A stretch of DNA of 48,734 nucleotides from Chloroflexota bacterium (GTDB lineage: Bacteria > Chloroflexota > Dehalococcoidia > Bin125): positions 1-48,734 of the forward strand of contig JAPOXB010000075.1 in the NCBI GenBank assembly GCA_026707335.1. Direction: 5' to 3'. How positions within the stretch are numbered: position 1 is the first letter of the stretch; every line of letters begins with the position of its first letter. Below, one piece after another: positions 1,838 to 31,676 of the stretch. Made by a program: the position numbers and the translations under genes. The notes under the pieces were generated by a model, which saw nothing but the letters and a program-made list of their open reading frames with translations, did no database searches and was not told the DNA's origin.

Positions 1838-1861
1838 CCGCGGCATCGGACGAGGCCGGCG

Positions 1862-2585: not shown

Positions 2586-2675
2586 CATCGCAGCCTCCCC
2601 CGGGCGCCCAGCCGGCCCGAAAAAAAAGAACCGAACCTGGCATCTTGAGGCCCGTGACCCCCTCCGAGCCGCCCC

Positions 2676-4577: not shown

Positions 4578-4733
4578 GTCGGCAGGGTAGCGGTGGGGGG
4601 CGAGGGTCGCCCCATCGACACCAGCCCCCCACCCAGAGGCTGTCGCTTCGACTACGCAGGATCGGACATGCCCCCGGGGAACTCCCGCCACTCCTTCGCC
4701 GGGCCCGCTGCGTGTCTTGGGTTGAGCCCCGCG

Positions 4734-12400: not shown

Positions 12401-13290
12401 TCGTCTCCGACTGCGCGATCCTGCTCACGGCGCTGTATGTGCTACGCGGCGACGCGCTCCTCAACTGGGATCCGGCGACGCCGATCACCGAGTGGGACGG
12501 CGTCAGCGTCAATGGCGAGCCGCCGCGCGTCACGCAGTTGGAACTCTCAGGGCGCCCGCTCACGGGGTCGATCCCCCCGCAGTTGGGCGGGCTGACGGCA
12601 CTCCGCGAGTTGCATCTCGCGCACACCCGCCTGAGCGGCGCCATCCCCGAGCAACTCGGTGACTTGGCGACCCTGGGCTCGCTGCGGCTGGCTGGCAATC
12701 AACTGACCGGGGCCATCCCGCCGGAACTCGGAGCCCTGTCAAATCTGCGGTCCCTGACTCTGAGTCACAACCAACTCAGCGGCCCGATCCCGCCGGAGCT
12801 TCGCGGGCTCAGCGCCCTACGCACCCTGTCGCTACACTATAACCAACTCAGCGGGCCGATACCGGCGGCGCTGGGCCAACTGGGCGACCTGGACTACGTC
12901 TCGTTGAACAACAACCAACTCACGGGCTCAATCCCCGCCGCCCTGGGGGCCTTGGCCGAACTGAGGCACCTGAGCCTGCGCATCAACCAACTGAGCGGTC
13001 CCATCCCGCCCGCGTGGGGAGCGCTGGGGGCTCTGCGGTACCTCTACCTCGACCACAACCAGCTCAGCGGTCCGATTCCAACTGAGTTGGGCTCGCTGCG
13101 CCACCTGAACACCCTATGGCTTCACAACAACCACCTCAGTGGCTCGATCCCAGCGGCGTTATCGGAGCTGGGAGACTTGGTGTATCTCTATCTGAGTGGC
13201 AATCCGATCACCGGCTGCGTGCCCGTGGCGGTCCGTGATGTGAAGTACAACGACCTCGACCAACTCTCCCTGCCCGACTGCCCGCCCTGA
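9415..13290 (+). CDS. Secreted multi-module plant-type LRR protein, 1291 aa, 4 capped modules (7/14/6/9 canonical 24-aa repeats by hand count)
   Basis: GTG start. The signal peptide is MRKRSAVLLATLLVVSLAVVTGRPSAAA. Modules start at the cap cysteines at nt 9508, 10312, 11614 and 12355. The repeat consensus is LxxLxxLxLxxNxL(T/S)GxIPxxLGx. Each module ends GNPGLTGC.P..LR....DL..L.LPDCPP. Confidence 0.9.
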   Translation: MRKRSAVLLATLLVVSLAVVTGRPSAAAPPTCENGVVVPDPEANRGLVLDCANLLAAKTQFTAPHPLNWGAETPIARWDGVTLGGYPPRVRELYLRARGFTGRVPPHLANVRELRELSLPDNQLTGSIPPELGSLRHLERLWLHGNQLTGGIPPELSSLRALEYLWLQDNHLTGGIPAELGTLSNLTDLLLRGNQLTGPIPAELGSLRDLRALWLQDNQFSGSIPPALGSLRSLRTLLLSDNELTGAIPAQLTSLISLEYLRLSGNAGLTGCIPQPLREVREHDLAEIGLPNCRPLPPPCEDGITVPNPAGNPGLVSDCAALLAARDQLRGYAALNWVRNIPITIWDGVTIEGDPPRVRGLELGRRGLTGAIPAQLGDLTALEEVRLDRNRLHGPIPPELGGLHNLRFLDLAYNHLRGSVPPELASLGKLGSLALDGNGLTGPIPPEISALSSLWYLGLGDNRLTGPIPAELAALLNLQELRLDTNQLTGPIPAALGSLPHLWRLRLNGNRLTGAIPAEIASLGALRYLHLHENRLSGAIPAALGSLPALETLSLNGNQLTGPIPPALGSLGALQFLGLGDNRLTGAIPPALGGLAWLRILTLSGNQLSGPIPDALGSLGTLSYLHLHDNQLTGRIPTALAGLITLRRLSLSENQLSGAIPGGLGVLRELEELSLHTNQLSGPIPTSLAWLSALRSLRLSGNPGLTGCVPPSLRDIGTNDLALPDCPPSAPSPCENGTAVANPEDNPALVLDCAILLGLRDTLTGDATLNWDPATPMWRWDGVVRGGWPRRVWALNLSRRSLSGRIPLELGRLAGLHSLRLDDNQLSGPIPATLGALRNLTNLSLSRNQLTGPIPAALASLRDLGDLGLRGNRLNGPIPPWLGSMSTLWRLELSENHLTGPIPAALGALADLKHLDLRDNQLSGPIPREVRLLDRTEKLYLGGNPGLTGCLPSVLRAVANNDLAGLSLPDCPPPPAPAQACVNGAAVAQAADNPGLVSDCAILLTALYVLRGDALLNWDPATPITEWDGVSVNGEPPRVTQLELSGRPLTGSIPPQLGGLTALRELHLAHTRLSGAIPEQLGDLATLGSLRLAGNQLTGAIPPELGALSNLRSLTLSHNQLSGPIPPELRGLSALRTLSLHYNQLSGPIPAALGQLGDLDYVSLNNNQLTGSIPAALGALAELRHLSLRINQLSGPIPPAWGALGALRYLYLDHNQLSGPIPTELGSLRHLNTLWLHNNHLSGSIPAALSELGDLVYLYLSGNPITGCVPVAVRDVKYNDLDQLSLPDCPP

Positions 13291-13340
13291 CCCGATCCCC
13301 TACCCTCCCCGCGCCCGACCCGGACGGCGGGAGGTGATCC

Positions 13341-15965: not shown

Positions 15966-15968
15966 CCG

Positions 15969-16156
15969 GTGCGCCATCCCCTACCCTGGCACGCGGCGGA
16001 GGCCACGCGTCGGGGGCGGAGGTGATCCGTGCGCACGCGCCGCGCGATCCTCCTCGCGGGCCTGCTGGCGGCCGTCCTGGCGGCGGTCGACGGACGTCCC
16101 GCCCGGGCGGAGCCCCCCACCTGCGAGAACGGCGTCGTCGTCCCCGACCCCGAGGT
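15969..16156 (+). repeat. 188-bp perfect direct repeat, copy A (intergenic leader plus the first 128 nt of the LRR gene)
   Basis: Identical base for base to 18573-18760 (offset 2604 bp). The flanks continue at high identity with isolated mismatches (15968, 16157). Confidence 0.9.
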
Positions 16157-18569
16157 TAACCGGGGCCTCGTCATCGACTGCGCGAACCTGCTCGCCGCGA
16201 AGACGCTGTTCACCGCGCCTCATCCGCTGAATTGGCGCGGCGAGACGCCGATTGCGGAGTGGGACGGCGTCACGCTCCTCGGCGAGCCCCCGCGCGTCGC
16301 CGAACTCAACCTTTCCTCGTATGGCCTATCGGGCCGCATTCCCCCGCAGTTGGGCCGCCTGTCGGCGCTGCGGAGTCTCTGGCTGCAGGACAGCAAGCTG
16401 ACCGGGGCCATCCCACCAGAACTCGGATCCCTACGCAACCTTGAAGTCCTGTCGTTGTGGGGCAACCAACTCAGCGGCGCGATCCCCATCCAACTGGCGG
16501 CCCTACCGGAGTTGGCGCAGTTGCATCTGGGCGGCAACCCTGGCCTGACCGGCTGTGTCCGGCTGGCGCTGTACGATGTGCCCAACAACGACTTCGCGGC
16601 GATCGGGCTACCGGGCTGTGACGGTTCACCGTCGCCCACGGCGACGTTCCCACCAGCGCCCATGCCGTCGTCCTGCGAGAACGGCATCGCCGTCCCCGAC
16701 CCCGTAGACAACCCCGGCCTCGTCTCCGACTGCGTCGCTCTTCTCGCCGCCAAGGCCGCGCTCGCCAGCGCCGCCCCCCTCAACTGGGATCCAGCCATCC
16801 CGGTCGGCGAATGGGACGGGATCCTCACCAGCGGCACCCCGCCGCGCGTGACCCTGCTGGCGCTGCTGGATCACGGTCTGCTGGGTCACATCCCAGCTCA
16901 ACTGGGCAGCCTCTCCGCACTTGAAGCTCTATGGCTCAGTGAGAACCGACTCACGGGCGTGATCCCGGCGGCGCTCGGATTGCTGGGAAACCTGGAGTCG
17001 CTGTGGCTGCACAAGAATCAGTTGACGGGCCCGATCCCGCCGCAGATCGGATCCTTACGGAGCCTGCAGTACCTGCGGTTGGACGAGAACCACCTCGGCG
17101 GTGGGATCCCCGCGGCCCTCGGATCACTGCGCGGCCTGCGGGATCTCTCACTGGCCGGCAACCAACTGACCGGCCCCATCCCCCCGGAGTTGGCCGCCCT
17201 CACGAACCTGGAGACGTTGCGGCTCAACGCCAACCACCTGCGTGGGCCCATCCCCAGTCCCCTGACATCCCTCACTTCCCTGCACACGCTGCGCTTAGAT
17301 GACAACGACATCACCGGTCCCATCCCGGCGGGATTGGGATCGCTGACCCGCCTGAGGCATCTATCACTGAACAACAACCAGATCGCAGGCCCAATCCCGG
17401 AGCAGTTGGGCGCGCTGCCCGACCTTCGTCACCTGTGGCTGCATGACAACCAACTCAGCGGCGCCATCCCCGCCGCGCTGGCGTCGCTGGGCGCCTTGAA
17501 TTCCGTGCAACTCAGCGGTAACCCGGGCCTGACCGGCTGCATCCCCGCCGCCCTGTCGGGCGTGCCGACGACCGATCTCATCGAGCTCGGCCTGCCCCGC
17601 TGCGACGGGGAGCCGCTGCTCACGTGTGAGAGCGGGGCCGCCGTCGCCGACCCCGCCGTCGCACCCGGCCTCGTCGCCGACTGCGCCATCCTCCTCAACA
17701 TCAAGGCCAGTCTCGCCGGCCGTGGCACGTTGAACTGGAGCGGCGGCGTGTCCATGAGCGACTGGGATGGTGTCACGATCGGCGGCGTCCCCCCGCGCGT
17801 CCACAAGCTGGAGTTGCCGCAGTACCACCTGACGGGTCGCATTCCCCCGGAACTGGGGGAGTTGACGGCACTGCGGGAACTGCGCCTGCATCACAACGCC
17901 TTGGCCGGGTCAATCCCAGCCGAGTTAGCGGCCCTTGGGTCGCTGGATGCGCTGTGGTTGTACGACAACCGCCTGACCGGGGCGATCCCGGCCGAGCTGG
18001 GGTCGCTGGAGAACCTGCGGTCCCTGTGGCTGCACAAGAATCGGCTGACGGGCCAGATCCCCCCGGCGTTGGCGTCCCTGCCCGAGATGGAATCTCTATC
18101 GCTGTTTCAGAACGAACTGACCGGGCCCATCCCCCCGGCGCTTGGCACGCTCCGCAAGCTGCGGCACTTGGCGCTCAGCGTGAACCACCTCAGCGGTCCC
18201 ATCCCAGCCGCGTTGGGGTCGCTGGTCAACCTGGAGGATCTGTCGCTGAGCGGGAACCGGCTCAGCGGTCCCATCCCAGCGGCGCTGGGGGAGTTGCGGA
18301 ATCTGCGGTTCCTGTACCTGAACTGGAACCAACTGAGCGGCCCCATCCCAATGGAACTCGGGGGCCTTGCGGCAGTCTCGCGCATCGGACTGGATCGGAA
18401 CCGGCTGACAGGCTCGATCCCGGCGCAACTGGCCACGCTCACGAACCTCCAGTCCCTCAGGCTGAGCTACAACCAGTTCACCGGTTGCATCCCGTCGGCG
18501 CTTCGCGACGTGCCATTAACCGACCTCGACGACCTCCCCCTGCCCGACTGCCCGCGGGAGCCGCCCTGA
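16029..18569 (+). CDS. Secreted multi-module plant-type LRR protein, 846 aa, 3 modules (3/9/9 repeats)
   Basis: GAGGTGATCC precedes the GTG start. The signal peptide MRTRRAILLAGLLAAVLAAVDGRPARA is identical to that of the next gene. The module caps are the same as in the other paralogs. Confidence 0.9.
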   Translation: MRTRRAILLAGLLAAVLAAVDGRPARAEPPTCENGVVVPDPEVNRGLVIDCANLLAAKTLFTAPHPLNWRGETPIAEWDGVTLLGEPPRVAELNLSSYGLSGRIPPQLGRLSALRSLWLQDSKLTGAIPPELGSLRNLEVLSLWGNQLSGAIPIQLAALPELAQLHLGGNPGLTGCVRLALYDVPNNDFAAIGLPGCDGSPSPTATFPPAPMPSSCENGIAVPDPVDNPGLVSDCVALLAAKAALASAAPLNWDPAIPVGEWDGILTSGTPPRVTLLALLDHGLLGHIPAQLGSLSALEALWLSENRLTGVIPAALGLLGNLESLWLHKNQLTGPIPPQIGSLRSLQYLRLDENHLGGGIPAALGSLRGLRDLSLAGNQLTGPIPPELAALTNLETLRLNANHLRGPIPSPLTSLTSLHTLRLDDNDITGPIPAGLGSLTRLRHLSLNNNQIAGPIPEQLGALPDLRHLWLHDNQLSGAIPAALASLGALNSVQLSGNPGLTGCIPAALSGVPTTDLIELGLPRCDGEPLLTCESGAAVADPAVAPGLVADCAILLNIKASLAGRGTLNWSGGVSMSDWDGVTIGGVPPRVHKLELPQYHLTGRIPPELGELTALRELRLHHNALAGSIPAELAALGSLDALWLYDNRLTGAIPAELGSLENLRSLWLHKNRLTGQIPPALASLPEMESLSLFQNELTGPIPPALGTLRKLRHLALSVNHLSGPIPAALGSLVNLEDLSLSGNRLSGPIPAALGELRNLRFLYLNWNQLSGPIPMELGGLAAVSRIGLDRNRLTGSIPAQLATLTNLQSLRLSYNQFTGCIPSALRDVPLTDLDDLPLPDCPREPP

Positions 18570-18572: not shown

Positions 18573-18760
18573 GTGCGCCATCCCCTACCCTGGCACGCGG
18601 CGGAGGCCACGCGTCGGGGGCGGAGGTGATCCGTGCGCACGCGCCGCGCGATCCTCCTCGCGGGCCTGCTGGCGGCCGTCCTGGCGGCGGTCGACGGACG
18701 TCCCGCCCGGGCGGAGCCCCCCACCTGCGAGAACGGCGTCGTCGTCCCCGACCCCGAGGT
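18573..18760 (+). repeat. 188-bp perfect direct repeat, copy B
   Basis: Identical to 15969-16156. Confidence 0.9.
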
Positions 18761-21700
18761 CAACCGGGGTCTCGTCCTCGACTGCGCGAACCTGCTCGCC
18801 GCCAAGACGCAGATCGACCGCCGCCGCGGGATCAACTGGGGCGGTGAAACGCCGATCGGCGAGTGGGACGGCGTCACCGTCGGCGGCGAGCCGTTGCGCG
18901 TCATCGAGGTCGACCTGCGTTCGAGCTTCCTCCTGGGCCGCATCGCACCGCAGTTCGGGCGGCTCTCGGCGCTGCGCGGCCTCTACCTGCAGAACAACAA
19001 GCTGACCGGGCCCATCCCGCCGGAGCTGGGATCGCTGCCCGACCTGGAGTTCCTCTGGCTGTTCCGCAACGATCTCGACGGTCCCATCCCGCCGGAACTC
19101 GGCTCGCTGGGCAGCCTGCGCGAGCTGTGGATCAGCACCAACCAATTGACCGGCTCGATCCCCGACCATCTCGGGAACCTGCGCGCCCTGCGTCTCATGC
19201 GCCTGGAGAACAACGAACTGACCGGGTCGATCCCGCCGTCGCTGGGATCGCTGGCGAACGTCGAGACGCTGCGGCTCGACAAGAACCGGTTGACTTGGAA
19301 GATCCCTCCCGAGTTGGGCGCCCTGTCCAACCTGCGCAACCTGCGCCTGACCGATAACGACCTGGAGGGTCGGATCCCGCCTGCGCTCGGCGCGCTGCAG
19401 AACCTGGAGTCCCTGTCGATGGGGCACAACCGGCTGACCGGCGCCATCCCGCCGGAACTCGGCGATCTGTCGGCTCTGCGCAGTCTGTACTTGCGCCGGA
19501 ACCAACTGAGCGGCCCGATCCCCGAGGCGCTGGGGAACCTGCGCAACCTGCAAACCCTGTGGCTGAACCAGAACCAGTTGACCGGGCCGATCCCAGCCGT
19601 GCTGGGGAGTCTGTCCACTCTGCGGATTCTGGACCTGCAGCGGAACCAACTGAGCGGCCCGATCCCCGCGGAGCTTGGGGCGCTGCGCAACCTGAACGAG
19701 TTGTTGCTGAACAACAACCAACTCAGCGGGCCGTTCCCGCATGAACTCGCCGACCTGCCCTCGCTGGTGCAGTTGTACGTCTCCGCCAACCCCGGCCTGA
19801 CCGGCTGTGTCCCGCGGCGGCTGCTCTACCCCCGCCAAAACGACCTCTGGGCGAGCGGCCTGCCCGTCTGCACGCCGCCGCCGCCGCCCTGCGCGAACGC
19901 CGCGGCCGTGCCCGACCCCGCGTCGAACCGGGGTCTCTACCGCGACTGCAACATCCTCCTCTCGATCAAGGACACGCTCGACGCCCGCGCCCCCCTCGAC
20001 TGGGACGCCGGCACGCCGATCGCCGATTGGGAGGGCGTCACCGTCGGGGGGCCGACGCCGCACGTGATCGGGATCGACCTGTCGTCACGCCGCCTGACGG
20101 GGCAACTCCCGGTGGGCCTGCGCGGGCTGACGCAACTGCGGGAGTTGCGCCTCGACGACAACCGCCTCACCGGCCCCATCCCGCGCGAGTACAGCTTCCT
20201 CTCGCAGTTGCGGACCCTGTCGCTGGGCGGCAACCGGCTGACAGGCGAGATCCCGCCCAGGCTCGGAACCTTGCCGCGCCTAGAGGTTATCTCGCTCGGC
20301 GGCAATTGGCTGGTCGGTCCCATCCCGTCCGAGTTCGGATCCCTGGTCGAGTTGCGGGAGCTGCGGCTGGGCGGCAACCACCTGCGCGGCCCCATCCCCG
20401 CCGAGTTGGGCGCGCTGCCCAACCTGCGCCGTCTCGACGTGCGCGACAACCAACTGGCCGGGCCCATCCCCGGTGCGCTGCGTCTGCTCGACCGGGCCGA
20501 GGCGCTGCACCTGGGCGGCAACCCCGGCCTCACGGGCTGCGTCCCGGCCGCCCTGCGGGCCGTGCCCGACAACGACCTCGACGCCCTGGCGTTGCCCGAC
20601 TGCCCGCCGCCGACCCCGCCCGCGGAACCGTGTGCGAACGGCACGGTGGTCGCCGCGCCGGCCGAGCACGCCGGCCTCGTCGGCGACTGCGCGATCCTGC
20701 TCGCGGCGCTGCACGCGCTGCGCGGCGACGCCAGCCTGAACTGGAGCCCCGCGACGCCGATCACGGAGTGGGACGGCGTCACCCTCGAGGGGGCGCCGCC
20801 GCGCGTCGCGAAGCTGGACGTCTCGCAGCGCCCGCTCACAGGGCACATCCCGCCGGAGTTGGCCGGTCTGACCGAACTCCAAGAGCTGCACCTCGGCGGC
20901 AATCGGCTGACCGGCGCGATCCCGGCCGAGCTGGGCGCGCTGGCCCACCTGGAGATCCTGCGCCTGCACGGCAACCGCCTGACCGGTCCCATCCCGCCCG
21001 TGCTGGGCGCCTTCACGCAGTTGCGCGTGCTGTCGCTGGGGGAGAACCAGTTGGCCGGTCCCATCCCGGTCGAGTTGGGGGCGCTGGTCGCCCTGGAGTC
21101 GCTGACGCTGAGCGGCAACCAACTCACGGGTCCGATCCCATCCTCGCTGGGCGAGTTGCGCGCGCTGACGCTCCTCGCGTTGAGCGACAACCAGTTGAGC
21201 GGCCCGATCCCGGACTCGCTGGGCGGGCTGCCCGACCTGCGGCTGCTGACGCTGCGGGACAACCAGCTGACCGGCGCGATCCCGGCGTCGCTGGCCGAAC
21301 TGCGCAGCCTGACCGACCTCTATCTGACCGGCAACCAGCTCAGCGGCCCCATCCCGGCGGAGCTCGGTCTCCTCGATCGCTTGGAGCGCCTCTCCCTCGA
21401 CGACAACCAACTGACCGGCCCCATCCCCGCCGAGCTGGGAACGTCCCCGCGGCTGCGATCGCTGAGCTTGGCGGGGAACCCCGGCCTGACCGGCTGCATC
21501 CCGCGGGCGCTGCGCGGCATCCGGTCGACCGACCTCGACGACCTCCCCCTCGGCGACTGCCCGGCGCCGCCCCCGCCCCCGCCGCCGACGCCGCCCTGCG
21601 AGGCGGGCGTCGCCGTGGCCCACCCCGCCGACACCCCCGGCCTCGTCGCCGACTGCGCCGCTCTCCTCGCCGCCCGGGACGCGCTCGCTGGCGATGCCGC

Positions 21701-22388
21701 CCTCAACTGGGATCCCGCCGTCCCCATCACCGCCTGGGACGGCGTCACCGTCGGCGACACGCTCGCCCGCGTCTGGCGCCTCGACCTCCAGTCACGCGGG
21801 CTCACGGGCCGCGTCCCGCCGCAACTGGGCGATCTCGCGGCGCTGCGCTTCCTGTCGCTCCACGGCAATCGGCTGAGCGGCCCGATCCCGGTCGAACTGG
21901 CGGCGCTTCGCAGTTTGGAATATGCGGATCTGGGCGGAAACCAACTCGCGGGCCCGATCCCGGCGGCGCTGGGGTCGATGCCCCGGCTGGACGCGCTGCT
22001 GCTGCACGACAACCGGCTGAGCGGCCCGATCCCGGCCGAACTCGGGTCGGCGCGGGCCCTGCGGTTCCTCTGGCTGCACCACAACGGCCTGACGGGCCCG
22101 AGCCCGGTCGAGTTGGGGCTCCTGGGCAGCCTGGAATCCCTGCGGCTGGACGGCAACCGGCTGAGCGGCCCGATCCCGGCCGAGCTGGGCGCCCTGCGCG
22201 CCCTGTCGGAGTTGCGCCTGGCCGACAACCATCTGACCGGCGCCATCCCGGCGTCGCTGGGCGAGTTGCCCCACCTGACCGACCTCTACCTGGCGCACAA
22301 CCCGCTCGGCGGCTGCATCCCCGCGCCGCTGCGCGCGATCGCGGCGACCGACCTCGACCAGATCCCGCTCCCCGACTGCCCACCTTGA
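18633..22388 (+). CDS. Secreted multi-module plant-type LRR protein, 1251 aa, 4 modules (12/6/9/7 repeats)
   Basis: Same leader, SD and GTG start as 16029. It has four cap-to-cap modules joined by Pro-rich linkers (e.g. PDCPAPPPPPPPTPPCEAG). Confidence 0.9.
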   Translation: MRTRRAILLAGLLAAVLAAVDGRPARAEPPTCENGVVVPDPEVNRGLVLDCANLLAAKTQIDRRRGINWGGETPIGEWDGVTVGGEPLRVIEVDLRSSFLLGRIAPQFGRLSALRGLYLQNNKLTGPIPPELGSLPDLEFLWLFRNDLDGPIPPELGSLGSLRELWISTNQLTGSIPDHLGNLRALRLMRLENNELTGSIPPSLGSLANVETLRLDKNRLTWKIPPELGALSNLRNLRLTDNDLEGRIPPALGALQNLESLSMGHNRLTGAIPPELGDLSALRSLYLRRNQLSGPIPEALGNLRNLQTLWLNQNQLTGPIPAVLGSLSTLRILDLQRNQLSGPIPAELGALRNLNELLLNNNQLSGPFPHELADLPSLVQLYVSANPGLTGCVPRRLLYPRQNDLWASGLPVCTPPPPPCANAAAVPDPASNRGLYRDCNILLSIKDTLDARAPLDWDAGTPIADWEGVTVGGPTPHVIGIDLSSRRLTGQLPVGLRGLTQLRELRLDDNRLTGPIPREYSFLSQLRTLSLGGNRLTGEIPPRLGTLPRLEVISLGGNWLVGPIPSEFGSLVELRELRLGGNHLRGPIPAELGALPNLRRLDVRDNQLAGPIPGALRLLDRAEALHLGGNPGLTGCVPAALRAVPDNDLDALALPDCPPPTPPAEPCANGTVVAAPAEHAGLVGDCAILLAALHALRGDASLNWSPATPITEWDGVTLEGAPPRVAKLDVSQRPLTGHIPPELAGLTELQELHLGGNRLTGAIPAELGALAHLEILRLHGNRLTGPIPPVLGAFTQLRVLSLGENQLAGPIPVELGALVALESLTLSGNQLTGPIPSSLGELRALTLLALSDNQLSGPIPDSLGGLPDLRLLTLRDNQLTGAIPASLAELRSLTDLYLTGNQLSGPIPAELGLLDRLERLSLDDNQLTGPIPAELGTSPRLRSLSLAGNPGLTGCIPRALRGIRSTDLDDLPLGDCPAPPPPPPPTPPCEAGVAVAHPADTPGLVADCAALLAARDALAGDAALNWDPAVPITAWDGVTVGDTLARVWRLDLQSRGLTGRVPPQLGDLAALRFLSLHGNRLSGPIPVELAALRSLEYADLGGNQLAGPIPAALGSMPRLDALLLHDNRLSGPIPAELGSARALRFLWLHHNGLTGPSPVELGLLGSLESLRLDGNRLSGPIPAELGALRALSELRLADNHLTGAIPASLGELPHLTDLYLAHNPLGGCIPAPLRAIAATDLDQIPLPDCPP

Positions 22389-22458: not shown

Positions 22459-23493
22459 GTGCGCACGTGCGCCTTCTCCTTCCTTCTCGCGGCGCTGCTG
22501 CTGGCCGGTCTCGCGGCGGTGGGCGGGCGCCCCGCCCAGGCCGCGCCCGCCACCTGCGAGAACGGCGTCGTCGTCCCCGACCCCGAGGCCAACCGCGGCC
22601 TCGTCATCGACTGCGCCAACCTGCTGGCCGCCAAGACCCAGTTCAGCGCTCGCCGGCCGCTCAACTGGGGCGGCGAGACGCCCATCGCCGAGTGGGACGG
22701 GGTGACCCTGGGCGGCGACCCGCCGCGCGTGTGGAAGGTGCACCTGCGGTCGCGCGGGCTCACGGGCCGCGTCGCGCCGCAGTTCGCCAACCTCCGCGAG
22801 TTGCGCGAACTGGCGCTGCACCACAACCGGCTGACGGGTCCCATCCCGGCCGGACTCGGGTCGCTGCGCCATTTGGAGCGCCTATGGCTCGACGGCAACC
22901 ATCTCAGCGGGTCGATCCCGCCCGCGCTCGGATCGCTGCGCAGCCTGCGCGAACTCTGGCTGCACGACAACCAACTGACCGGCCGCATCCCATCGGAGCT
23001 GGGAGAGCTGCCTTCCCTCGAACGTCTGTGGCTCTACGACAACCAACTGACGGGCCCGATCCCGCCGACGTTGGGATCGCTCTCCGGCCTTCGGTCCCTG
23101 CTGCTGCACGGCAACCAACTATCGGGCCGCATCCCGCCGGAGTTGGGGTCGCTGGACGGCCTGCGACTGCTGTGGCTGAAGGACAACCAACTCACGGGCC
23201 GGATCCCGGCGGCGCTCGGGTCGCTGGGCGAGGTGCTGGACCTGCTGCTCGAGCGCAACCAGCTGACGGGCGCGATTCCCGCCTCGTTCGCCGCCCTGCG
23301 CAGCGTGAAGCGGCTGCACCTCGACGACAACCAGCTCATGGGTCCGATGCCCGCCTGGCTGTCCTCCCTCCCCGATCTGACCTCTCTGCGCCTGAGCGGC
23401 AACCCCGGCCTGACCGGCTGCATCCCCCCGTCGCTGCGGGAGGTCCGCCGGCATGACTTGGCGGAGGCCGGCCTGCCCGACTGCCCGCCCTGA
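22459..23493 (+). CDS. Secreted single-module plant-type LRR protein, 344 aa (9 repeats plus caps; PGIP-like size and layout)
   Basis: GAGGTGATCC precedes the GTG start. The signal peptide ends AQA. It has one N-cap, 9 LRRs and one C-cap ending LPDCPP. Confidence 0.9.
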   Translation: MRTCAFSFLLAALLLAGLAAVGGRPAQAAPATCENGVVVPDPEANRGLVIDCANLLAAKTQFSARRPLNWGGETPIAEWDGVTLGGDPPRVWKVHLRSRGLTGRVAPQFANLRELRELALHHNRLTGPIPAGLGSLRHLERLWLDGNHLSGSIPPALGSLRSLRELWLHDNQLTGRIPSELGELPSLERLWLYDNQLTGPIPPTLGSLSGLRSLLLHGNQLSGRIPPELGSLDGLRLLWLKDNQLTGRIPAALGSLGEVLDLLLERNQLTGAIPASFAALRSVKRLHLDDNQLMGPMPAWLSSLPDLTSLRLSGNPGLTGCIPPSLREVRRHDLAEAGLPDCPP

Positions 23494-23551: not shown

Positions 23552-26500
23552 GTGCGCAAGTATGCCCTCCCCTCCTTAATCGCCGCATCCGCCGCGTTGC
23601 TGCTGGTCGTCCTCGCGCCCGGTTCCTCCCAGGCTGCGCCCCCGACGTGCGAGAACGGTGTCGTCGTTCCCGACCCCGAGGCCAACCGCGGCCTCGTCGC
23701 CGACTGCGCGAGTCTGCTCGCCGCGAAGACCCAACTCAAGGCCTCGACGCCGCTCAACTGGGGCGCCGACACGCCCATCGCCGAGTGGGACGGTGTTGGC
23801 CTTGGGGGCGAACCGACGCGCGTCTGGAAGCTGCACTTGCGGTCGCGCGGGCTCACGGGCCGCATCGCCGCGCAACTGACCAACGTTCGGGAGCTGCGCG
23901 AGCTCTCGCTGCCGGACAACCAACTCACGGGCCCGATTCCGCCCGCGCTGGGCTCCTTGCGCCACCTGGAAGGCCTGTGGCTCAATGGCAACCAACTCAG
24001 CGGGCCGATCCCGAGTCAATTGAGGCACTCACCGAAGTTGGAGTACCTCTACCTCGGGAGCAACGGTCGCTTCACGGGCTGCGTCCCGCGGGCGCTCCAC
24101 GACGTCCCCTACAACGACTTCGCGTCGCTTGACCTGCGAGGCTGCGCCAGGGCGCTCCCGCCCCCGTTCCCTTGCGGGAATGGCATCGCCGTCCCCAACC
24201 CAGCCGAGAACCTCGGCTTGGTCTCCGACTGCGTCGCCCTCCTCGCCGCGAAGGATCCGCTGAGGGGGGACGTCGCGCTCAACTGGAGCGCCGCGGTCCC
24301 AATCGCCGCCTGGGATTCCGTCACGATCGACGGCGCGCCGCCCCGCGTGTCGCGCTTGGTTCTGTCGCGCCGTGTCCTGACGGGCGTCATTCCGGCGGAG
24401 TTGGGGAACCTAGCCAATCTGGAAGTCCTGTCGCTGAGCCACAACCAACTGACCGGCCCGATCCCGGGAGCGCTGGGGGCCCTGACCCACCTGCGGGAGC
24501 TTTCCCTCGGCGGGAACCAACTCAGCGGCCCAATCCCGGCCGTGCTCGGTGCTCTGTCCCACCTGGAGGTGCTGTCGTTGGACAGTAACAGCCTGACCGG
24601 CCCGATCCCGGGCGCGCTGGGGGCCCTGACCCACCTGCGGGAGCTTTCCCTCGGCGGGAACCAACTCAGCGGCCCGATCCCGGGCGCACTGGGGGCCCTG
24701 GCCGCTCTTGAGTACCTCTGGTTGCAGGACAACCAACTAAGCGGCTCTATCCCGTCGGCGCTGGGATCACTGAGCAACCTGCGGCAACTCCGCCTGCAGT
24801 ACAACCATCTGACCGGCGCGATCCCCGCTGAACTGGGACTCCTAGGCCGCCTGTGGGAGTTGCGCTTGCACGACAATCAACTGAGCGGTGCGATCCCCCC
24901 GGATTTAGGCGCGCTGCCCAGCCTCGGTTTCCTCTTGCTGTACAACAATCGGCTCAGCGGCGTTATCCCCCCCGCGCTCGGGATGCTCGGCAGGCTGCGG
25001 AACCTGGAACTCTACGGCAACCAGTTGACCGGCCCGATCCCCGAGGCGCTCGGCGGTCTGACCAACCTGCGATCTCTGTGGTTGAGCCGCAATCAACTCA
25101 GCGGCCCGATCCCGGTGGCGCTGGCATCGCTGCGCGGACTGGAGTCCTTGGGGCTAAACGAGAACCAACTCACCGGCCCCATCCCGCCCCAGTTGGGATC
25201 CATGGACCACCTCGTGTATCTCTGGCTACGCGACAACCAACTTACCGGTCCGGTCCCGGCTGAACTGGGCCTGCTCGGCAGTTTGGAATCGCTCCGGTTG
25301 GGCGGCAACCCTGGCCTGACGGGCTGCATCCCACCGCGACTCAGGGATGTCACCGGGCATGACCTCGCTGACGTTCCCCTCCCCGACTGCCACGACTCTC
25401 CGCCTCCCTGCGAGAACGGCATCGCCGTTCCCAACCCCGCCGACCACCCCGGCCTGGTCCACGACTGCGAGGTCTTGCTCGCCGCGGAACTCACTCTCGC
25501 GGACGGCGCCTCCCTGAACTGGTACGCCGGCATACCCATCACCACCTGGGACGGCGTCACTGTCGCTGGCACACCGCCTCGCGTCCAGAGGCTGGAACTG
25601 CCGTCGCATGGACTCGGAGGCCGTATCCCGGCCGTGCTGGGGTCGCTGGCACGATTGCAGACGCTGAACCTTGAGAGCAACGGCCTGACGGGCGTGATCC
25701 CGGCGGAACTCGGCGACCTGCACGACCTGCGGGATCTGAGGCTTAACTCGAACCGACTGGCGGGGGCCATCCCCCCCACCCTGGCGTCCCGCTTCACCCT
25801 GGAGACGGTGTATCTGGCCGACAACCCCTGGCTGACGCCTTGTATCCCGCCGGGACTCCGCCATGTCCCACGCAACGACCTCCATGATCTCGGCCTGCCG
25901 GACTGCATCCCCGGTGTCACGCTCACCTGCCAGACGGGCTCAGCGGTGGCCAACCCCAACGGCAACCCCGGCCTCGTCGGCGACTGCACCATCCTCCTCG
26001 CTGCGAATGCCACCCTCGCGGGCGATGCCACACTCAACTGGGACGTCGGCGTGCCGATTGGGTCGTGGGACGGCATCACTGTCAGGGGTTCTCCGCCGCG
26101 CGTAGTGGAGATCGACCTTCAGTTGCGCGGGCTGACAGGCCTTATCCCACCAGCGCTGGGGGGTCTCTCCGAACTACGGAAACTGTTTCTGCCTAGCAAC
26201 CAGTTGCGTGGCGGGATCCCTGCGGAACTCGGGACGCTCCAGGAACTGCGAATCCTCGCACTGAGCTTCAACGAGCTGAGTGGCAGTATCCCTCGGCAGT
26301 TGGGATCGCTCCACAACCTGGAGGACTTCACGATCGTGGGCAACCAATTGGAGGGCGAGATCCCCGCCGAGTTGGGGTCGTTGCACAAACTGTGGCAACT
26401 TGCGCTATCGAATAATCAGTTGGTTGGCCCCATCCCCCCAGAACTGGGGGCCCTGAGCAGGCTGCGACATCTGGGGTTGGGCGGCAACCAGTTGACCGGC

Positions 26501-26794
26501 CCCATCCCAGCGGCGTTCGGCATGCTGCGCGACCTGGAGACCCTGCTGCTTGAGGGGAATCGACTGACCGGCCCGATCCCCGCGGAATTGGGGGCGCTGC
26601 CTCGGCTCCGGTCCTTGCAGCTGTTCAACAACCGACTGATTGGACCCATCCCCTTCGATCTGCAGGCGCTGCCGGCCCTGGAACTGCTGAACCTTAGCGG
26701 CAACGCTGGCCTCACCGGCTGCATCCCGCCTGCACTTCACGACGTCCGCTACAACGACCTCGCCGACCTCTCCCTCCCCGACTGCCCGCCGTGA
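23552..26794 (+). CDS. Secreted multi-module plant-type LRR protein, 1080 aa, 4 modules (3/13/3/8 repeats)
   Basis: GAGGTGATCC precedes the GTG start. The signal peptide ends SQA. The architecture matches the other paralogs. Confidence 0.9.
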   Translation: MRKYALPSLIAASAALLLVVLAPGSSQAAPPTCENGVVVPDPEANRGLVADCASLLAAKTQLKASTPLNWGADTPIAEWDGVGLGGEPTRVWKLHLRSRGLTGRIAAQLTNVRELRELSLPDNQLTGPIPPALGSLRHLEGLWLNGNQLSGPIPSQLRHSPKLEYLYLGSNGRFTGCVPRALHDVPYNDFASLDLRGCARALPPPFPCGNGIAVPNPAENLGLVSDCVALLAAKDPLRGDVALNWSAAVPIAAWDSVTIDGAPPRVSRLVLSRRVLTGVIPAELGNLANLEVLSLSHNQLTGPIPGALGALTHLRELSLGGNQLSGPIPAVLGALSHLEVLSLDSNSLTGPIPGALGALTHLRELSLGGNQLSGPIPGALGALAALEYLWLQDNQLSGSIPSALGSLSNLRQLRLQYNHLTGAIPAELGLLGRLWELRLHDNQLSGAIPPDLGALPSLGFLLLYNNRLSGVIPPALGMLGRLRNLELYGNQLTGPIPEALGGLTNLRSLWLSRNQLSGPIPVALASLRGLESLGLNENQLTGPIPPQLGSMDHLVYLWLRDNQLTGPVPAELGLLGSLESLRLGGNPGLTGCIPPRLRDVTGHDLADVPLPDCHDSPPPCENGIAVPNPADHPGLVHDCEVLLAAELTLADGASLNWYAGIPITTWDGVTVAGTPPRVQRLELPSHGLGGRIPAVLGSLARLQTLNLESNGLTGVIPAELGDLHDLRDLRLNSNRLAGAIPPTLASRFTLETVYLADNPWLTPCIPPGLRHVPRNDLHDLGLPDCIPGVTLTCQTGSAVANPNGNPGLVGDCTILLAANATLAGDATLNWDVGVPIGSWDGITVRGSPPRVVEIDLQLRGLTGLIPPALGGLSELRKLFLPSNQLRGGIPAELGTLQELRILALSFNELSGSIPRQLGSLHNLEDFTIVGNQLEGEIPAELGSLHKLWQLALSNNQLVGPIPPELGALSRLRHLGLGGNQLTGPIPAAFGMLRDLETLLLEGNRLTGPIPAELGALPRLRSLQLFNNRLIGPIPFDLQALPALELLNLSGNAGLTGCIPPALHDVRYNDLADLSLPDCPP
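24449..24683 (+). repeat. Internal tandem duplication with a 144-bp period (two LRR units) inside the LRR gene
   Basis: 24449-24539 and 24593-24683 differ at only 2 of 91 positions (24469 and 24532). Both encode LTGPIPGALGALTHLRELSLGGNQLSGPIP. Confidence 0.85.
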
Positions 26795-29942: not shown

Positions 29943-31676
29943 TTACTCCGGGACCTCGCCCAGGCGCGCGGACGCGGCGATGTAGTCGAAGACGTCCGAG
30001 ATCGTGACTGACGTGATGTCTTCGGCCGGAGCGACCTCGCGATACCATTCCTCGCCGTCGTGCATACCGAGACAAAGTTCCGACTCTTCTGCCACGTCAG
30101 TGAGGCAGATGGAGACCCCGGCGTGGTCCAGGATGAGCGACTCCCATTTCACCTGATGTTCGCTCGTCGGGATGTCGAGGATGAGAGGTGGCAGCCGTGG
30201 ATCGATCGCGAAGGAATACGTGCCCGGGCGGAGCGGTGGGCCGCCCAGGAATGTATACGCGAGTGCGGCCACTGGAGGCGGCGTCACGACGCGGAACGTG
30301 GTCCTGGCTACCACATGCCCCTCTGCCGGTCGCGGTCCCGTTCGCATCGCCCGCAGGTCGAACGTGATCACGTCGGCGGCGCCCTCGAATGGGATGGGCG
30401 TGAACGTGTAGGTGGTCCGGGCGGGCGCGACCGCCCGGTCGCCCGAGGTGGGCGCCGGCCCGGCCACCGGCCGCCGCTCCAGCGCGAACTCCGTGAAGCC
30501 CGCTGGGAGCGACGCCGTCGTGACCACCGTCACCTGCTGCCCGCGGCGCACGTGGTATCGCCCCTGGTCGTCCGGCTCGATGATCGCCGCGTCTAGGATG
30601 TCGGCCACGTCGGCGTAGTCCTCCGGCGCGCCCCGGTAGACCGCCTGGATGCAGCGTGAGTCGGCGGGGCCGGCGACGGCCGTGCCGTCCGCGCAGCGGA
30701 TGGGCGGGGGCGGAGGACAGTCCGGGAGGGGGACACGGCCCAAGTCGTTCCCGCGGATGCGCCGGAGGGGCGCCGGGACGCAGCCGGTCAGGCCGGGGTT
30801 GCGACCGAGCTCCAGGTACGCCAGCTCCTTCAGTTCCGCAAGCCGCGGTGGGATCGGGCCGCTGAGGTCGTTGCCGCGCAGATAGAGCGTGGTCAGGGCG
30901 GGCGGGAAACCGAGTTCGGTCGGGATCGCGCCGCTGAGTTGGTTGTGGGACAGGGCCAGGTTCCGCAGCGCGAACAGCGCGCCCAAGTCGGCCGGGATCG
31001 GACCGGTCAGCGCGTTGCTCTGCAGCCACAGTGATCGCAGTCCCGGCAGGAATCTCAGGGAGGCGGGGATCGGGCCGCTGAGTTGGTTGTTGCTCAGGGC
31101 CAGGGAGCGCAGGTCGCGCAGCGATCCCAACGCCGGGGGGATGGGACCGGTCAGCCGGTTCTGGTGCAGCCAGAGGTACCGCAGGCCACGCAGATCCCCC
31201 AGCGCGGCGGGGATCGGGCCCGTCAACTTGTTGAAGGACAGGTCGAGGCGCCAGAGCGTGTCCAGGCCGGCCAGTTCCGGCGGGATGCGGCCCGTGAGAC
31301 CTCGGCGTGACAGGTCGATCTCTCGCACGCGCGCCGGCTCGCCGGCGACGCTGACGCCGTCCCAGGCCCTGATAGGGATGCCGGCGTCCCAGTTGAGGAT
31401 GGTCCCGCCGGCCAGGGTGGCTTTGACGCCGAGCAGGACATCGCAGTCGAAGACGAGGTGCCAGTCGGCAAACGGGTCGCGCACGGCGGCGCCGTTCTCG
31501 CAGGTTCGGTCCGCGGCCTCGGCCGGCCCGCCGCCCGCCAGGACGCCGGTGCCCACCAGCACCGCGATCACTGCCGCGACGAGTCGCACCGGCACGGATC
31601 CCCCCATCCGGCTGTCGCCGCCCCCCGGCAGCCTACCCCCCAATCCGACCGCGCGGCGCGGCCGTATCTTCCGCAT
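29943..31676 (-). CDS. Secreted single-module plant-type LRR protein (7 repeats) fused to a C-terminal domain of about 240 aa with unknown function
   Basis: The N-cap is DRTCENGAAVRDP..FDCDVLLGVKATLAGGTILNWDAGIPIRAWDGVSV, followed by LRRs and the C-cap GRNPGLTGCVP..LPDCPPPPP. The non-LRR tail then runs to the stop. An alternative start is the ATG at 31607 (MGGSVPVRLVAAVIAVLVG). Confidence 0.8.
   Translation of the reverse strand: MRKIRPRRAVGLGGRLPGGGDSRMGGSVPVRLVAAVIAVLVGTGVLAGGGPAEAADRTCENGAAVRDPFADWHLVFDCDVLLGVKATLAGGTILNWDAGIPIRAWDGVSVAGEPARVREIDLSRRGLTGRIPPELAGLDTLWRLDLSFNKLTGPIPAALGDLRGLRYLWLHQNRLTGPIPPALGSLRDLRSLALSNNQLSGPIPASLRFLPGLRSLWLQSNALTGPIPADLGALFALRNLALSHNQLSGAIPTELGFPPALTTLYLRGNDLSGPIPPRLAELKELAYLELGRNPGLTGCVPAPLRRIRGNDLGRVPLPDCPPPPPIRCADGTAVAGPADSRCIQAVYRGAPEDYADVADILDAAIIEPDDQGRYHVRRGQQVTVVTTASLPAGFTEFALERRPVAGPAPTSGDRAVAPARTTYTFTPIPFEGAADVITFDLRAMRTGPRPAEGHVVARTTFRVVTPPPVAALAYTFLGGPPLRPGTYSFAIDPRLPPLILDIPTSEHQVKWESLILDHAGVSICLTDVAEESELCLGMHDGEEWYREVAPAEDITSVTISDVFDYIAASARLGEVPE

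What the first reader, a model, noticed from the sequence alone, without database searches (positions are those of the whole stretch)
22459..23493. The repeats and caps are of the plant-specific LRR type; the single-module gene has the layout of a PGIP / LRR-receptor ectodomain
Seen: the repeat consensus LxxLxxLxLxxNxL(T/S)GxIPxxLGx (24 aa) is the 'plant-specific' LRR class (established classification, recalled from memory). The N-cap also resembles a plant cap. An example is DCANLLAAKTQFSARRPLNWGGETPIAEWDGVTLGGDPPRVWKVHLRSRGLTGRVAP. It follows the same order of elements as the plant LRRNT_2 cap: ALLxFKxxL....LxSW......W.GVxC....RVxxLxLxxxxLxGxIP. In the bacterial version, however, the cysteine pair sits at C-ENG...DC and does not flank the W-GV motif. 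The C-cap GNPGLTGC(I/V)P...DC resembles the plant ectodomain ending GNxxLCGxPLxxC. The 344-aa gene (signal peptide, cap, 9 LRRs, cap) matches plant PGIPs in size and layout. Inference: either ancient inter-kingdom transfer or strong convergence. In either case this is a eukaryote-like protein family expanded in a bacterium.
Basis: partly seen in the sequence, partly recalled or inferred. Interest (0 to 1): 0.7.

Follow-up and report, generated by a model that had tools for sequence, protein, structure and literature searches.

The report
Secreted plant-type LRR protein, sponge symbiont
A marine-sponge-associated bacterium encodes a tandem family of secreted leucine-rich-repeat binding proteins whose repeats and fold match those of plant cell-surface receptors; this repeat type is in fact widespread in bacteria, so the gene is an interesting variant of a known kind rather than evidence of a plant-to-bacterium transfer.

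Summary
ORF 22459-23493 (+) encodes 344 aa: a signal peptide, an N-cap, about ten 24-residue repeats and a C-cap. The repeat consensus, L(R/E)xLxLxxNQL(T/S)GPIPxELGxLxx, is the 'plant-specific' (PS) LRR class. All top sequence and structure matches in the PDB are plant LRR-receptor ectodomains.

The N-cap is a remote LRRNT_2 relative. Pfam PF08263 does not reach threshold directly. However, the cap profile matches a widespread bacterial/protist cap (hhalign 93-98%), and some members of that cap class do hit PF08263. A 166-aa mini-module model superposes on SERK/BAK1 ectodomains, caps included.

The C-cap comparison is mis-registered. GNPGLTGCIP is the last PS repeat, not the plant GNxxLCG cap.

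The cysteine arrangement (C-x19-C before the cap helix, C-x20-C at the end) is a distinct variant found in about 3,700 protein clusters. It often occurs as multi-module giants carrying cadherin, fn3 or autotransporter domains.

The nearest relatives are bacterial: Dehalococcoidia and other probably sponge-associated MAGs. 'Plant transfer or convergence' is therefore not required.

The likely role is an extracellular binder acting through a conserved Trp-lined concave face, within the known class of sponge-symbiont eukaryote-like repeat proteins. Function is inferred. Interest is moderate to low.

The parts
22459..23493 (+). Gene E: single-module secreted PS-LRR protein, 344 aa (the finding)
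   Evidence: ORF. Pfam LRR_1/LRR_4/LRR_8/LRR_14. Orthologs at 83-90% identity under purifying selection. Identical protein on two other contigs.
22459..22542 (+). Predicted Sec signal peptide (residues 1-28, MRT..hydrophobic..AQA|A)
   Evidence: Read from the sequence: charged n-region, hydrophobic core, AxA at positions 26-28. Residues 1-29 have pLDDT below 50 in the model. All six paralogs begin the same way. The cleavage site is inferred; no predictor was run.
22555..22728 (+). N-cap (residues 33-90): C33-x18-C52, helix 46-59, LNW, W79-DGV, PPRV
   Evidence: Alignment A1: C1, D19, C20, L23, L24, W38 and W47 are invariant in 20/20 caps. Helix and strands come from the model. hhalign to the generic bacterial LRRNT_2-like cap. 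In-register match to TMK3 caps.
22729..23376 (+). LRR1-LRR9 (residues 91-306): nine 24-residue PS-type repeats
   Evidence: Unit starts at 91, 115, 139, 163, 187, 211, 235, 259, 283. Each repeat is predicted as strand-strand-short helix.
23377..23484 (+). LRR10 plus C-cap (residues 307-342): LTSLRLSGNPGLTGC321IPPSLREVRRHDLAEAGLPDC342
   Evidence: Motif found in 15 modules by regex. C3 is always followed by C4 (73/73 complete cases, spacing 21 in 53). No significant plant C-cap match. C342 aligns with the PGIP 'NNKC' cysteine.
9415..13290 (+). Paralog A, 1291 aa, 4 capped modules
13341..15965 (+). Paralog B, 874 aa, 2 capped modules
16029..18569 (+). Paralog C, 846 aa, 3 capped modules. The first is a 166-aa mini-module (16122-16619) used for the cap structure test.
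18633..22388 (+). Paralog D, 1251 aa, 4 capped modules joined by Pro-rich linkers
23552..26794 (+). Paralog F, 1080 aa, 4 capped modules
   Evidence: Nearly identical stretch in a Chloroflexota MAG protein, P0004.
29943..31676 (-). Seventh family member, 577 aa: N-terminal hydrophobic segment, one capped module, PPPPP linker, then about 250 aa of C-terminal region with no Pfam match

Best explanation
Gene E encodes a Sec-exported, stand-alone LRR solenoid. It has about ten 24-residue PS-type repeats. The N-terminal end is closed by a divergent LRRNT_2-like cap, and the C-terminal end by a short tail.

Each cap probably carries one disulfide: C33-C52 before the cap helix, and C321-C342 from the last repeat to the C-terminus.

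E is the single-module member of a seven-gene family in this window. The six tandem genes A-F hold 18 modules, and the minus-strand gene holds one more. The family belongs to a large bacterial family of '4-Cys capped' PS-LRR modules. The genome is a Dehalococcoidia (Chloroflexota) bacterium, apparently from a marine sponge microbiome.

The protein most likely acts outside the cell as a binding module. The binding surface would be the concave beta-sheet face, which carries a Trp ladder and is more conserved among orthologs than the rest of the repeats. The partner is probably a host or matrix component, in line with the known class of sponge-symbiont eukaryote-like repeat proteins.

Shown here: the sequence class, the predicted fold, the family membership, the taxonomic neighbourhood and the selection pattern.
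Inferred: export, the disulfides, the extracellular binding role and the host-related ligand.
For: Repeat class and fold:
- 24-residue period and PS consensus.
- AF2 model with pLDDT 90.9 and strand-strand-short-helix units. This is the PS unit as described in PMC5976695.
- The PDB sequence hits shown are predominantly plant LRR-RK ectodomains, and the strongest are all plant (E down to 1.6e-162). The Foldseek top 50 are all plant.

Caps:
- The 166-aa mini-module model (pLDDT 95.3) matches SERK1/2/BAK1 ectodomains with TMq 0.74-0.76 over 144-151 of 166 columns, rmsd 2.3-2.8 A. That coverage exceeds the roughly 86-residue LRR body, so cap residues must be aligned too.
- The cap profile matches the generic bacterial LRRNT_2-like cap.
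- TMK3 caps align in register.

Disulfide inference:
- C2 always has an upstream partner cysteine (97/97; 94 within 14-21 residues, spacing 19 in 78).
- C3 always has a downstream partner (73/73).
- There are no other cysteines in the mature modules.

Extracellular role:
- All six tandem paralogs have signal-peptide-like N-termini.
- Proteins with the same cap carry cadherin, fn3, Big, subtilase, reprolysin and autotransporter beta-domains.

Binding face:
- dN/dS is 0.03-0.09 at concave x positions against 0.28-0.32 for the rest of the LRR, among E and its three orthologs.
- W143, W167, W191 and W239 form a ladder at repeat position 5.

Origin:
- Orthologs at 83-90% identity lie in Dehalococcoidia MAGs. 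More distant LRR relatives lie in Ca. Spongiisociaceae, Caldilineaceae, Gemmatimonadota, Longimicrobiales, Latescibacterota and Poribacteria MAGs. The 4-Cys N-cap itself was found only in Dehalococcoidia and Longimicrobiales loci.
- The identical protein is on contig ROBB21-1_SAMN13943207.
- LRR and other eukaryote-like repeats are reported as enriched in sponge MAGs (PMC8163846; PMC6306507).
Against: - No experiment or expression data were examined, and the ligand is unknown.
- No signal-peptide predictor or disulfide geometry was available, because the model coordinates are not exposed.
- AlphaFold was trained on plant LRR structures, so the Foldseek agreement is not fully independent of the sequence similarity.
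- PS-type repeats are not, to my knowledge, the LRR type typical of animal proteins. 'Mimicry' of sponge proteins is therefore not implied by the sequence class.
- The sponge origin rests on a contig label and on the names of related MAGs, not on sample metadata that I read.
- The selection analysis uses only four sequences and few substitutions: 3-13 non-synonymous changes at concave sites.
Confidence: 0.7

Rival explanations
1. PGIP-like inhibitor. E is a secreted decoy that binds and blocks a hydrolytic enzyme of the host or of competing microbes, as plant PGIPs block fungal polygalacturonases. This would protect the symbiont from digestion.
For: Same stand-alone layout and size as PGIP: signal peptide, cap, about 10 PS repeats, Cys-closed end, no anchor or output domain. 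BLASTP to PvPGIP2 gives 30% identity, E = 3e-28. The concave face is conserved, which suggests one fixed partner.
Against: PGIP is not among the best matches. LRR-RK ectodomains score far higher. PGIP concave residues are known to evolve under diversifying selection (my knowledge), which is the opposite of what is seen here. No target enzyme is encoded nearby.
Confidence: 0.12
2. Bacterial surface or aggregation adhesin with no host role. The capped modules would be building blocks of cell-surface proteins that mediate bacterium-bacterium or bacterium-particle attachment. E would be a small soluble or loosely bound member.
For: The same cap occurs in giant mosaic proteins with cadherin, fn3, Big and autotransporter domains. 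PS-LRR relatives occur in MAGs whose names do not suggest a sponge source, such as Thiomargarita, Anaerolineales, rumen Bacteroidaceae and Acidobacteriota.
Against: E has no recognisable anchor: it ends two residues after C342. In the genome scan, the 4-Cys cap variant was found only in Dehalococcoidia and Longimicrobiales loci from the MAG series that also contains sponge-named taxa.
Confidence: 0.15
3. Recent or ancient direct transfer of a plant or algal LRR ectodomain gene into this bacterium.
For: Highest-scoring solved structures are all plant. The cap order matches LRRNT_2.
Against: Identity to plants is about 30-38%, against 40-62% to thousands of bacterial proteins in many phyla. The cysteine pattern of both caps differs from plants. 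G+C content in this region (0.68-0.74) lies within the range of the rest of the window (0.63-0.75). The genes sit among housekeeping genes: AspRS, trigger factor, ClpX. The PDB holds few bacterial PS-LRR structures, so 'best PDB hit is plant' reflects what has been solved.
Confidence: 0.03

Closest known systems
Plant extracellular LRR ectodomains (LRR-RKs such as SERK/BAK1, GSO1, MIK2, FLS2; LRX; PGIP)
   Same: 24-residue PS repeats with L(T/S)GxIP. Predicted beta-beta-short-helix unit. N-cap order of helix, W, W.GV, then first repeat. A cysteine-closed C-terminal end. Best sequence and structure matches.
   Different: No transmembrane or kinase part. The N-cap cysteine pair lies before the helix (C-x18-C) instead of flanking W.GV. 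The last-repeat cysteine is at repeat position 14, not 12. There is a single C-terminal loop, with no GNxxLCGxPLxxC element. PF08263 is below threshold. Modules are strung in tandem within one polypeptide.
Bacterial and protist PS-LRR proteins with the 'DRxALxALYxxTxGxxW...W.GV' cap (some matched by Pfam LRRNT_2 or LRR_10)
   Same: Same repeat class and a homologous N-cap (hhalign 93-98%). Extracellular mosaic contexts.
   Different: Those caps have no cysteines, or have the plant-type C.W.GV.C pair. The window family adds a roughly 19-residue N-terminal loop closed by C1-C2, and a C3-C4 tail.
Eukaryote-like repeat proteins (ANK, LRR, TPR) of sponge symbionts
   Same: Repeat proteins expanded in what appear to be sponge-associated MAGs, including Chloroflexota. 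They are thought to mediate host association (PMC6306507; PMC8163846). This window carries seven such genes.
   Different: The published work that I read defines them only by Pfam repeat hits. It does not describe the PS class, the capped-module architecture or the cysteine pattern. Functional evidence exists for ankyrin proteins, not for LRR proteins.
Bacterial LRR effectors and adhesins (Xanthomonas XopL/XopAC/XopAE, Listeria internalins, Leptospira LIC LRR proteins)
   Same: Bacterial LRR proteins used in host interaction. They give weak similarity through the repeats.
   Different: All NCBIfam scores are far below cut-offs (for example XopAC 83.7 against 450). They have different repeat classes, caps and secretion routes. 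E has a Sec-type signal, with no T3SS context and no internalin inter-repeat domain.

Membership tests
Plant-specific (PS) LRR class | Repeat unit of 24 residues | tested here: met
   125 of 139 anchor spacings equal 24.
Plant-specific (PS) LRR class | Consensus LxxLxLxxNxL(T/S)GxIPxxLGxLxx | tested here: met
   Position frequencies: L1 91%, L4 92%, L6 98%, N9 96%, L11 97%, T/S12 81%, G13 98%, I15 98%, P16 99%, L19 91%, G20 76%, L22 94%.
Plant-specific (PS) LRR class | Structural unit beta-beta-3(10) helix, i.e. a second strand on the L(T/S)GxIP segment | tested here: met
   DSSP on the AF2 model shows strand, strand and a 5-residue helix in every repeat. The definition is in PMC5976695. This is a predicted structure, not a solved one.
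Pfam LRRNT_2 (PF08263) | Score at or above the gathering threshold of 20.7 bits | tested here: not met
   No hit on E. Among 10 isolated caps, only D2 scores, at 14.1 bits, E = 0.058.
Pfam LRRNT_2 (PF08263) | Cysteine pair flanking W.GV (C.W.GV.C) | tested here: not met
   The positions flanking W-DGV are not cysteines. The two invariant cysteines are at columns 1 and 20 of the cap, before and at the start of the helix.
Pfam LRRNT_2 (PF08263) | Order of helix (ALLxFK-like), W, W.GV, RVxxLxL; detectable homology to LRRNT_2-positive caps | tested here: met
   In-register alignment to both TMK3 caps, E = 0.0048. Local alignments place W-DGV-T on the N-cap W.GV.C of GSO1, FLS2, PEPR1, PSKR1, SERKs and HPCA1. 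hhalign to generic bacterial caps gives 92.7-98.1%. Twelve of 38 of those caps hit PF08263. The link to the Pfam family is indirect.
PGIP (polygalacturonase-inhibiting protein) | Secreted stand-alone protein of about 310-340 aa with about 10 PS repeats | tested here: met
   344 aa, signal peptide, 9-10 repeats, no further domain. 30% identity, E = 3e-28 to PvPGIP2 (the sequence was recalled and cross-checked against fragments printed).
PGIP (polygalacturonase-inhibiting protein) | Two N-terminal and two C-terminal disulfides in the plant arrangement | tested here: not met
   Only one cysteine pair sits at each end, at different positions. One C-terminal loop may be analogous, since C342 aligns with the PGIP 'NNKC' cysteine. 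The PGIP disulfide map is from my memory.
PGIP (polygalacturonase-inhibiting protein) | Inhibits polygalacturonase | not testable with these tools
   Needs an enzyme assay.
Plant LRR receptor kinase / receptor-like protein | Ectodomain followed by a transmembrane helix (and kinase) | tested here: not met
   The ORF stops two residues after the C-cap cysteine.
Sponge-symbiont eukaryote-like repeat proteins (LRR type) | Pfam LRR repeats in a genome of a sponge-associated microbe | tested here: met
   LRR_1/4/8 hits. The identical protein is on ROBB21-1_SAMN13943207. Related MAG series; PMC8163846. Sponge origin is inferred from labels and names.
Sponge-symbiont eukaryote-like repeat proteins (LRR type) | Enrichment relative to free-living relatives, and a role in host association | not tested
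   No comparison with seawater Dehalococcoidia was made. Function needs an experiment.
Type III effector LRR families (XopL, XopAC, XopAE) and internalins | NCBIfam score above the curated cut-off | tested here: not met
   XopAC 83.7/450, XopAE 67.6/600, XopL 40.7/500, internalin H 23.7/1050.

The most novel reading that the evidence does not exclude
The complete plan of plant extracellular LRR ectodomains comprises an LRRNT_2-type cap, 24-residue PS repeats and a cysteine-closed C-terminus. On this reading it is not a plant invention but a widespread prokaryotic extracellular module, present across many bacterial phyla and possibly Asgard archaea, from which the eukaryotic versions derive. 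The 4-Cys capped variant seen here would be a lineage-specific radiation that sponge symbionts use to bind one conserved host factor through a Trp-lined concave face.
Probability: 0.2. Interest if true: 0.65.

Novelty: new variant of a known kind. Interest (0 to 1): 0.35.

Why it matters
It corrects a tempting reading. 'Plant-specific' LRRs with LRRNT_2-like caps are common in bacteria, so plant-like sequence alone is not evidence of inter-kingdom transfer.

It also defines a concrete unit: a capped PS-LRR module with a relocated disulfide pattern. No Pfam model detects this cap above threshold. The cap is found in about 3,700 protein clusters, and in what appear to be sponge symbionts it is arranged as beads on a string.

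The single-module gene E is small, conserved across related genomes and has a conserved Trp-lined face. That makes it a practical candidate for finding what the LRR class of sponge-symbiont 'eukaryote-like proteins' binds, which remains untested for LRRs.

Tried and rejected
- A cap-only HMM (A1, 59 columns) against PDB sequences found only one chance-level non-plant hit.
The single protein was used instead.
- The C-cap alone (41 aa) against the PDB gave nothing significant. The weak hits align to internal repeats.
- Disulfide mapping in the AF2 models was not possible, because coordinates are not exposed to the scripts. Cysteine co-occurrence was used as a proxy.
- My first co-occurrence script mis-anchored the cap helix, so its N-cap table should be ignored in favour. 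The C-cap part is valid.
- Minus-strand and alternative-frame ORFs overlapping the LRR genes were dismissed as high-GC shadow ORFs. ORF 13334-16159 was replaced by the in-frame LRR gene 13341-15965.
- Membership of T3SS effector and internalin families was rejected on NCBIfam scores.
Full report
**1. What is there**

The interval 22459-23493 is exactly one + strand ORF (GTG start, 344 aa). It is the fifth of six head-to-tail paralogs:
- A, 9415-13290
- B, 13341-15965
- C, 16029-18569
- D, 18633-22388
- E, 22459-23493
- F, 23552-26794

A seventh member lies on the minus strand at 29943-31676.

Genes A-F contain 4, 2, 3, 4, 1 and 4 'modules'. Each module is an N-cap, a run of repeats and a C-cap. 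Modules are joined by proline-rich linkers.

Every module has exactly four cysteines and no others:
- C1 in CENG
- C2 in DC..LL
- C3 in LTGC(I/V)P
- C4 in LPDC

All six tandem genes start with a charged n-region, a hydrophobic core and an AxA motif, which is the pattern of a Sec signal peptide (by inspection). Residues 1-29 of E are the only low-confidence part of the structure model.

The surrounding genes are ordinary chromosomal ones: zinc alcohol dehydrogenase, HAD hydrolase, a HemN-like radical SAM protein, aspartyl-tRNA synthetase, an Opp-type ABC transporter, trigger factor and ClpX. G+C in the gene-family region (0.68-0.74) lies within the range of the rest of the window (0.63-0.75).

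**2. Repeat class**

Anchoring on LxxLxLxxNxL, 125 of 139 successive spacings in genes A-F are exactly 24 residues. The position-wise consensus is L(R/E)xLxLxxNQL(T/S)GPIPxELGxLxx, with G13, I15 and P16 at 98-99%. This is the 'plant-specific' class consensus. The class list and the beta-beta-3(10) unit are given in PMC5976695, and the plant motif xxLxLxxNxLt/sGxIP in PMC6749341.

An AlphaFold2 model of E has mean pLDDT 90.9 and pTM 0.86. It shows strand, strand and a short helix in every repeat.

phmmer against all PDB sequences returns predominantly plant LRR receptor ectodomains, and the strongest matches are all plant:
- GSO1, E = 1.6e-162
- MIK2, RGFR, FLS2, PEPR1, HSL1 and BRI1 follow
- Leptospira LRR proteins appear only near 1e-48, and animal SHOC-2/LRRD1 lower still

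The Foldseek top 50 are all plant ectodomains or LRX proteins, with TM-scores up to 0.78 and rmsd about 2 A over about 290 columns.

That test is therefore not met, and the PS assignment stands.

**3. N-cap**

Direct tests are weak:
- PF08263 does not hit E.
- Of ten isolated caps, one scores 14.1 bits (E = 0.058) against a 20.7-bit threshold.
- A 59-column cap-only profile finds no plant chain in the PDB.

The resemblance is nevertheless not imaginary:
- The 76-residue cap of E alone has a single sub-0.01 hit in 177,635 PDB sequences. It is plant TMK3 (E = 0.0048), and both aligned stretches are TMK3's own two caps, in register from the helix through W, W.GV and RV..L.L.
- With the first two repeats included, local alignments begin at the N-terminal W.GV.C of GSO1, FLS2, PEPR1, PSKR1, SERK1/2 and BAK1. 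For HPCA1 they begin at the cap helix.

The strongest evidence is transitive. Among the top 120 homologs there are three cap types:
- the 4-Cys type (68 proteins);
- a cysteine-free 'DRxALxALYxxTxGxxW..NW..W.GV' type;
- a type with the plant C.W.GV.C pair.

Profile-profile comparison of the 4-Cys cap against the other two types gives 98.1% probability (E = 7e-14, 47 columns) and 92.7% (E = 4e-7). Of 38 of those other caps, 12 hit PF08263 (best E = 3.6e-7) and 13 hit PF18805 LRR_10.

A structural test used a natural 166-residue mini-module (C1; N-cap, about three repeats, C-cap):
- The model has pLDDT 95.3.
- Its best PDB matches are the small SERK1, SERK2 and BAK1 ectodomains.
- TMq is 0.74-0.76, TMt 0.66-0.71 and rmsd 2.3-2.8 A over 144-151 of 166 columns.
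- That is more than the roughly 86-residue repeat body can supply, so cap residues are superposed too.

Caveat: AlphaFold has seen these plant structures in training.

**4. Cysteines and C-cap**

C1 and C2 are invariant in 20 of 20 aligned caps and lie 19 residues apart, before and at the start of the cap helix. They do not flank W.GV. In the 120 homologs, every cap with C2 also has an upstream cysteine (97/97; spacing 19 in 78 cases). Every complete GC[IVL]P has a downstream cysteine (73/73; spacing 21 in 53 cases). This strict co-occurrence, with no other cysteines present, points to two local disulfides, C1-C2 and C3-C4. That is an inference, because I could not read model coordinates.

- The 41-residue C-terminal piece has no significant PDB match (best E = 0.19).
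- Its GNPGLTGCIP aligns with internal or last PS repeats, for example PGIP 'GGINNLVGPIP' and 'FN-NLCGEIP'.
- The cysteine sits at repeat position 14, where plants have it at position 12.

In a BLASTP alignment with bean PGIP2 (30% identity, E = 3e-28), C342 falls on the cysteine of PGIP 'NNKC'. The PGIP2 sequence was recalled from memory and checked against the fragments printed. The C3-C4 loop may therefore correspond to the first of PGIP's two C-terminal loops. This is a lead only. The terminal plant element GNxxLCGxPLxxC is absent, since E ends two residues after C4.

**5. Where it comes from and how common it is**

Orthologs of E, also single-module, occur at 90, 86 and 83% identity in three Dehalococcoidia MAGs.

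More distant LRR relatives lie in MAGs named Ca. Spongiisociaceae, Caldilineaceae, Gemmatimonadota, Longimicrobiales, Latescibacterota and Ca. Poribacteria. In that scan the 4-Cys N-cap itself was found only in Dehalococcoidia and Longimicrobiales loci.

The identical protein sits on ENA contig ROBB21-1_SAMN13943207_METAG-scaffold_738. The label points to the coral-reef sponge study PMC8163846, which reports enrichment of leucine-rich and other eukaryote-like repeat proteins in sponge MAGs. PMC6306507 reports LRR genes in sponge Caldilineae and SAR202 genomes. The sponge origin is inferred from labels and names.

A related contig has the LRR gene array next to the same alcohol dehydrogenase gene.

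The cap profile finds 3,691 clusters (50%-identity representatives) at E <= 1e-3 and 2,592 at E <= 1e-10, with up to 16 caps in one protein. Cap-bearing proteins include giants with cadherin, fn3, Big, reprolysin and autotransporter beta-domains. Modules also co-occur with cadherin, fn3, subtilase and PD40 domains. All of these are extracellular contexts.

PS repeats with near-canonical LRRNT_2 caps occur in bacteria whose names do not suggest a sponge source, such as Ca. Thiomargarita nelsonii (19.9 bits) and Anaerolineales. Weak matches also occur in Thorarchaeota MAGs.

Identity of E to plant proteins is about 30-38%, against 40-62% to bacterial proteins. Nothing here calls for a plant donor or for convergence. 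The module is a bacterial one with a very wide distribution. The direction of any ancient exchange with eukaryotes cannot be decided from these data.

**6. How it probably works**

E has no anchor, transmembrane segment or output domain, so it is not a receptor. The likely course is export by Sec, oxidation of the two cap disulfides, and action as a soluble or loosely attached binding protein.

Among E and its three orthologs, overall dN/dS is 0.19-0.24. It is 0.03-0.09 at the concave-face variable positions (2, 3, 5, 7, 8, 10 of each repeat) and 0.28-0.32 in the rest of the repeats. This is the reverse of the pattern known for plant resistance proteins and PGIPs (my knowledge). It suggests one conserved ligand rather than an arms race.

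The concave face carries tryptophans at position 5 of repeats 3, 4, 5 and 7. Positions 2-3 of repeats 2-5 carry alternating Arg/Glu pairs.

Given the genomic niche and the extracellular partners of the module elsewhere, the best guess is binding to a sponge matrix or cell-surface component. That would mean attachment, or interference with recognition or phagocytosis, as proposed for this protein class. A PGIP-like enzyme-inhibitor role and a purely bacterial adhesin role remain open.

**7. Verdict**

- Correct: the PS class and the plant-ectodomain-like fold.
- Real but remote: the N-cap relationship to LRRNT_2.
- Mis-registered: the C-cap equation.
- Unnecessary: the 'transfer or convergence' framing.

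The finding belongs to two known kinds: PS-type LRRs in bacteria, and eukaryote-like repeat proteins of sponge symbionts. What is new in detail is the 4-Cys capped module as a distinct, abundant variant that Pfam does not detect above threshold, its beads-on-a-string organisation, and the conserved Trp-lined face of the single-module member.

Noticed in passing
window 9415-9660, 13341-13590, 16029-16275, 18633-18880, 22459-22710, 23552-23800: The signal peptide and first-module N-cap (AAPPTCENGVVVPDPEANRGLV(I/L)DCANLLAAKTQF) are nearly identical among the six tandem paralogs. They are also conserved in orthologs from other MAGs (P0001, P0002, P0019, P0049, P0099). Internal-module caps are only 41-58% identical to it. 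The leading cap may have a function of its own, such as processing, sorting or a common partner, or the genes may undergo gene conversion.
   Followed up: partly
window 22459-23493 (residues 143, 167, 191, 239): There is a Trp ladder at repeat position 5 on the predicted concave face. Positions 2-3 of repeats 2-5 carry alternating RE/ER pairs. These concave positions are more conserved among orthologs (dN/dS 0.03-0.09) than the rest of the repeats (0.28-0.32).
   Followed up: partly
window 29943-31676 (-): The seventh family member has one capped module followed by a PPPPP linker and about 250 residues with no Pfam match. This may be a new C-terminal domain attached to the module.
   Followed up: no
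window 1-4830: The long ORFs on both strands (176-2191 -, 2290-4632 -, 1027-2232 +, 2721-4829 +) gave no Pfam hit at the thresholds used. I did not work out which are real genes.
   Followed up: no
L008 (Ca. Thiomargarita nelsonii), L023 and L028 (Anaerolineales): These bacterial PS-LRR proteins have N-caps carrying the plant-type C.W.GV.C cysteine pair (for example ECEVLVTLYNSTGGDSWDTSTGWLEDNEPCGWYGVTC). LRRNT_2 scores 19.9 bits, just under threshold, in the Thiomargarita protein.
   Followed up: partly
L048-L051, L053, L055 (Candidatus Thorarchaeota MAGs): Asgard-archaeal contigs encode LRR stretches matching E at 28-34% identity. I did not examine whether they are PS-type or whether they have caps.
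   Followed up: no
P0044, P0002, P0019 (homologs): Several close homologs in the protein database look frameshifted. LRR sequence switches into Arg/Pro-rich out-of-frame text and back. This suggests assembly or gene-calling errors in these repetitive high-GC genes. Family counts based on predicted proteins may therefore be inflated or fragmented.
   Followed up: no
L060 (contig ERZ28669063:ctg102117): A related genome has an LRR gene array directly downstream of the same zinc alcohol dehydrogenase gene as in the window (window 8359-9348). The gene sizes there differ (1365, 497, 223, 492, 220, 617, 346, 1221 aa). The locus is therefore conserved in position but variable in module content.
   Followed up: partly
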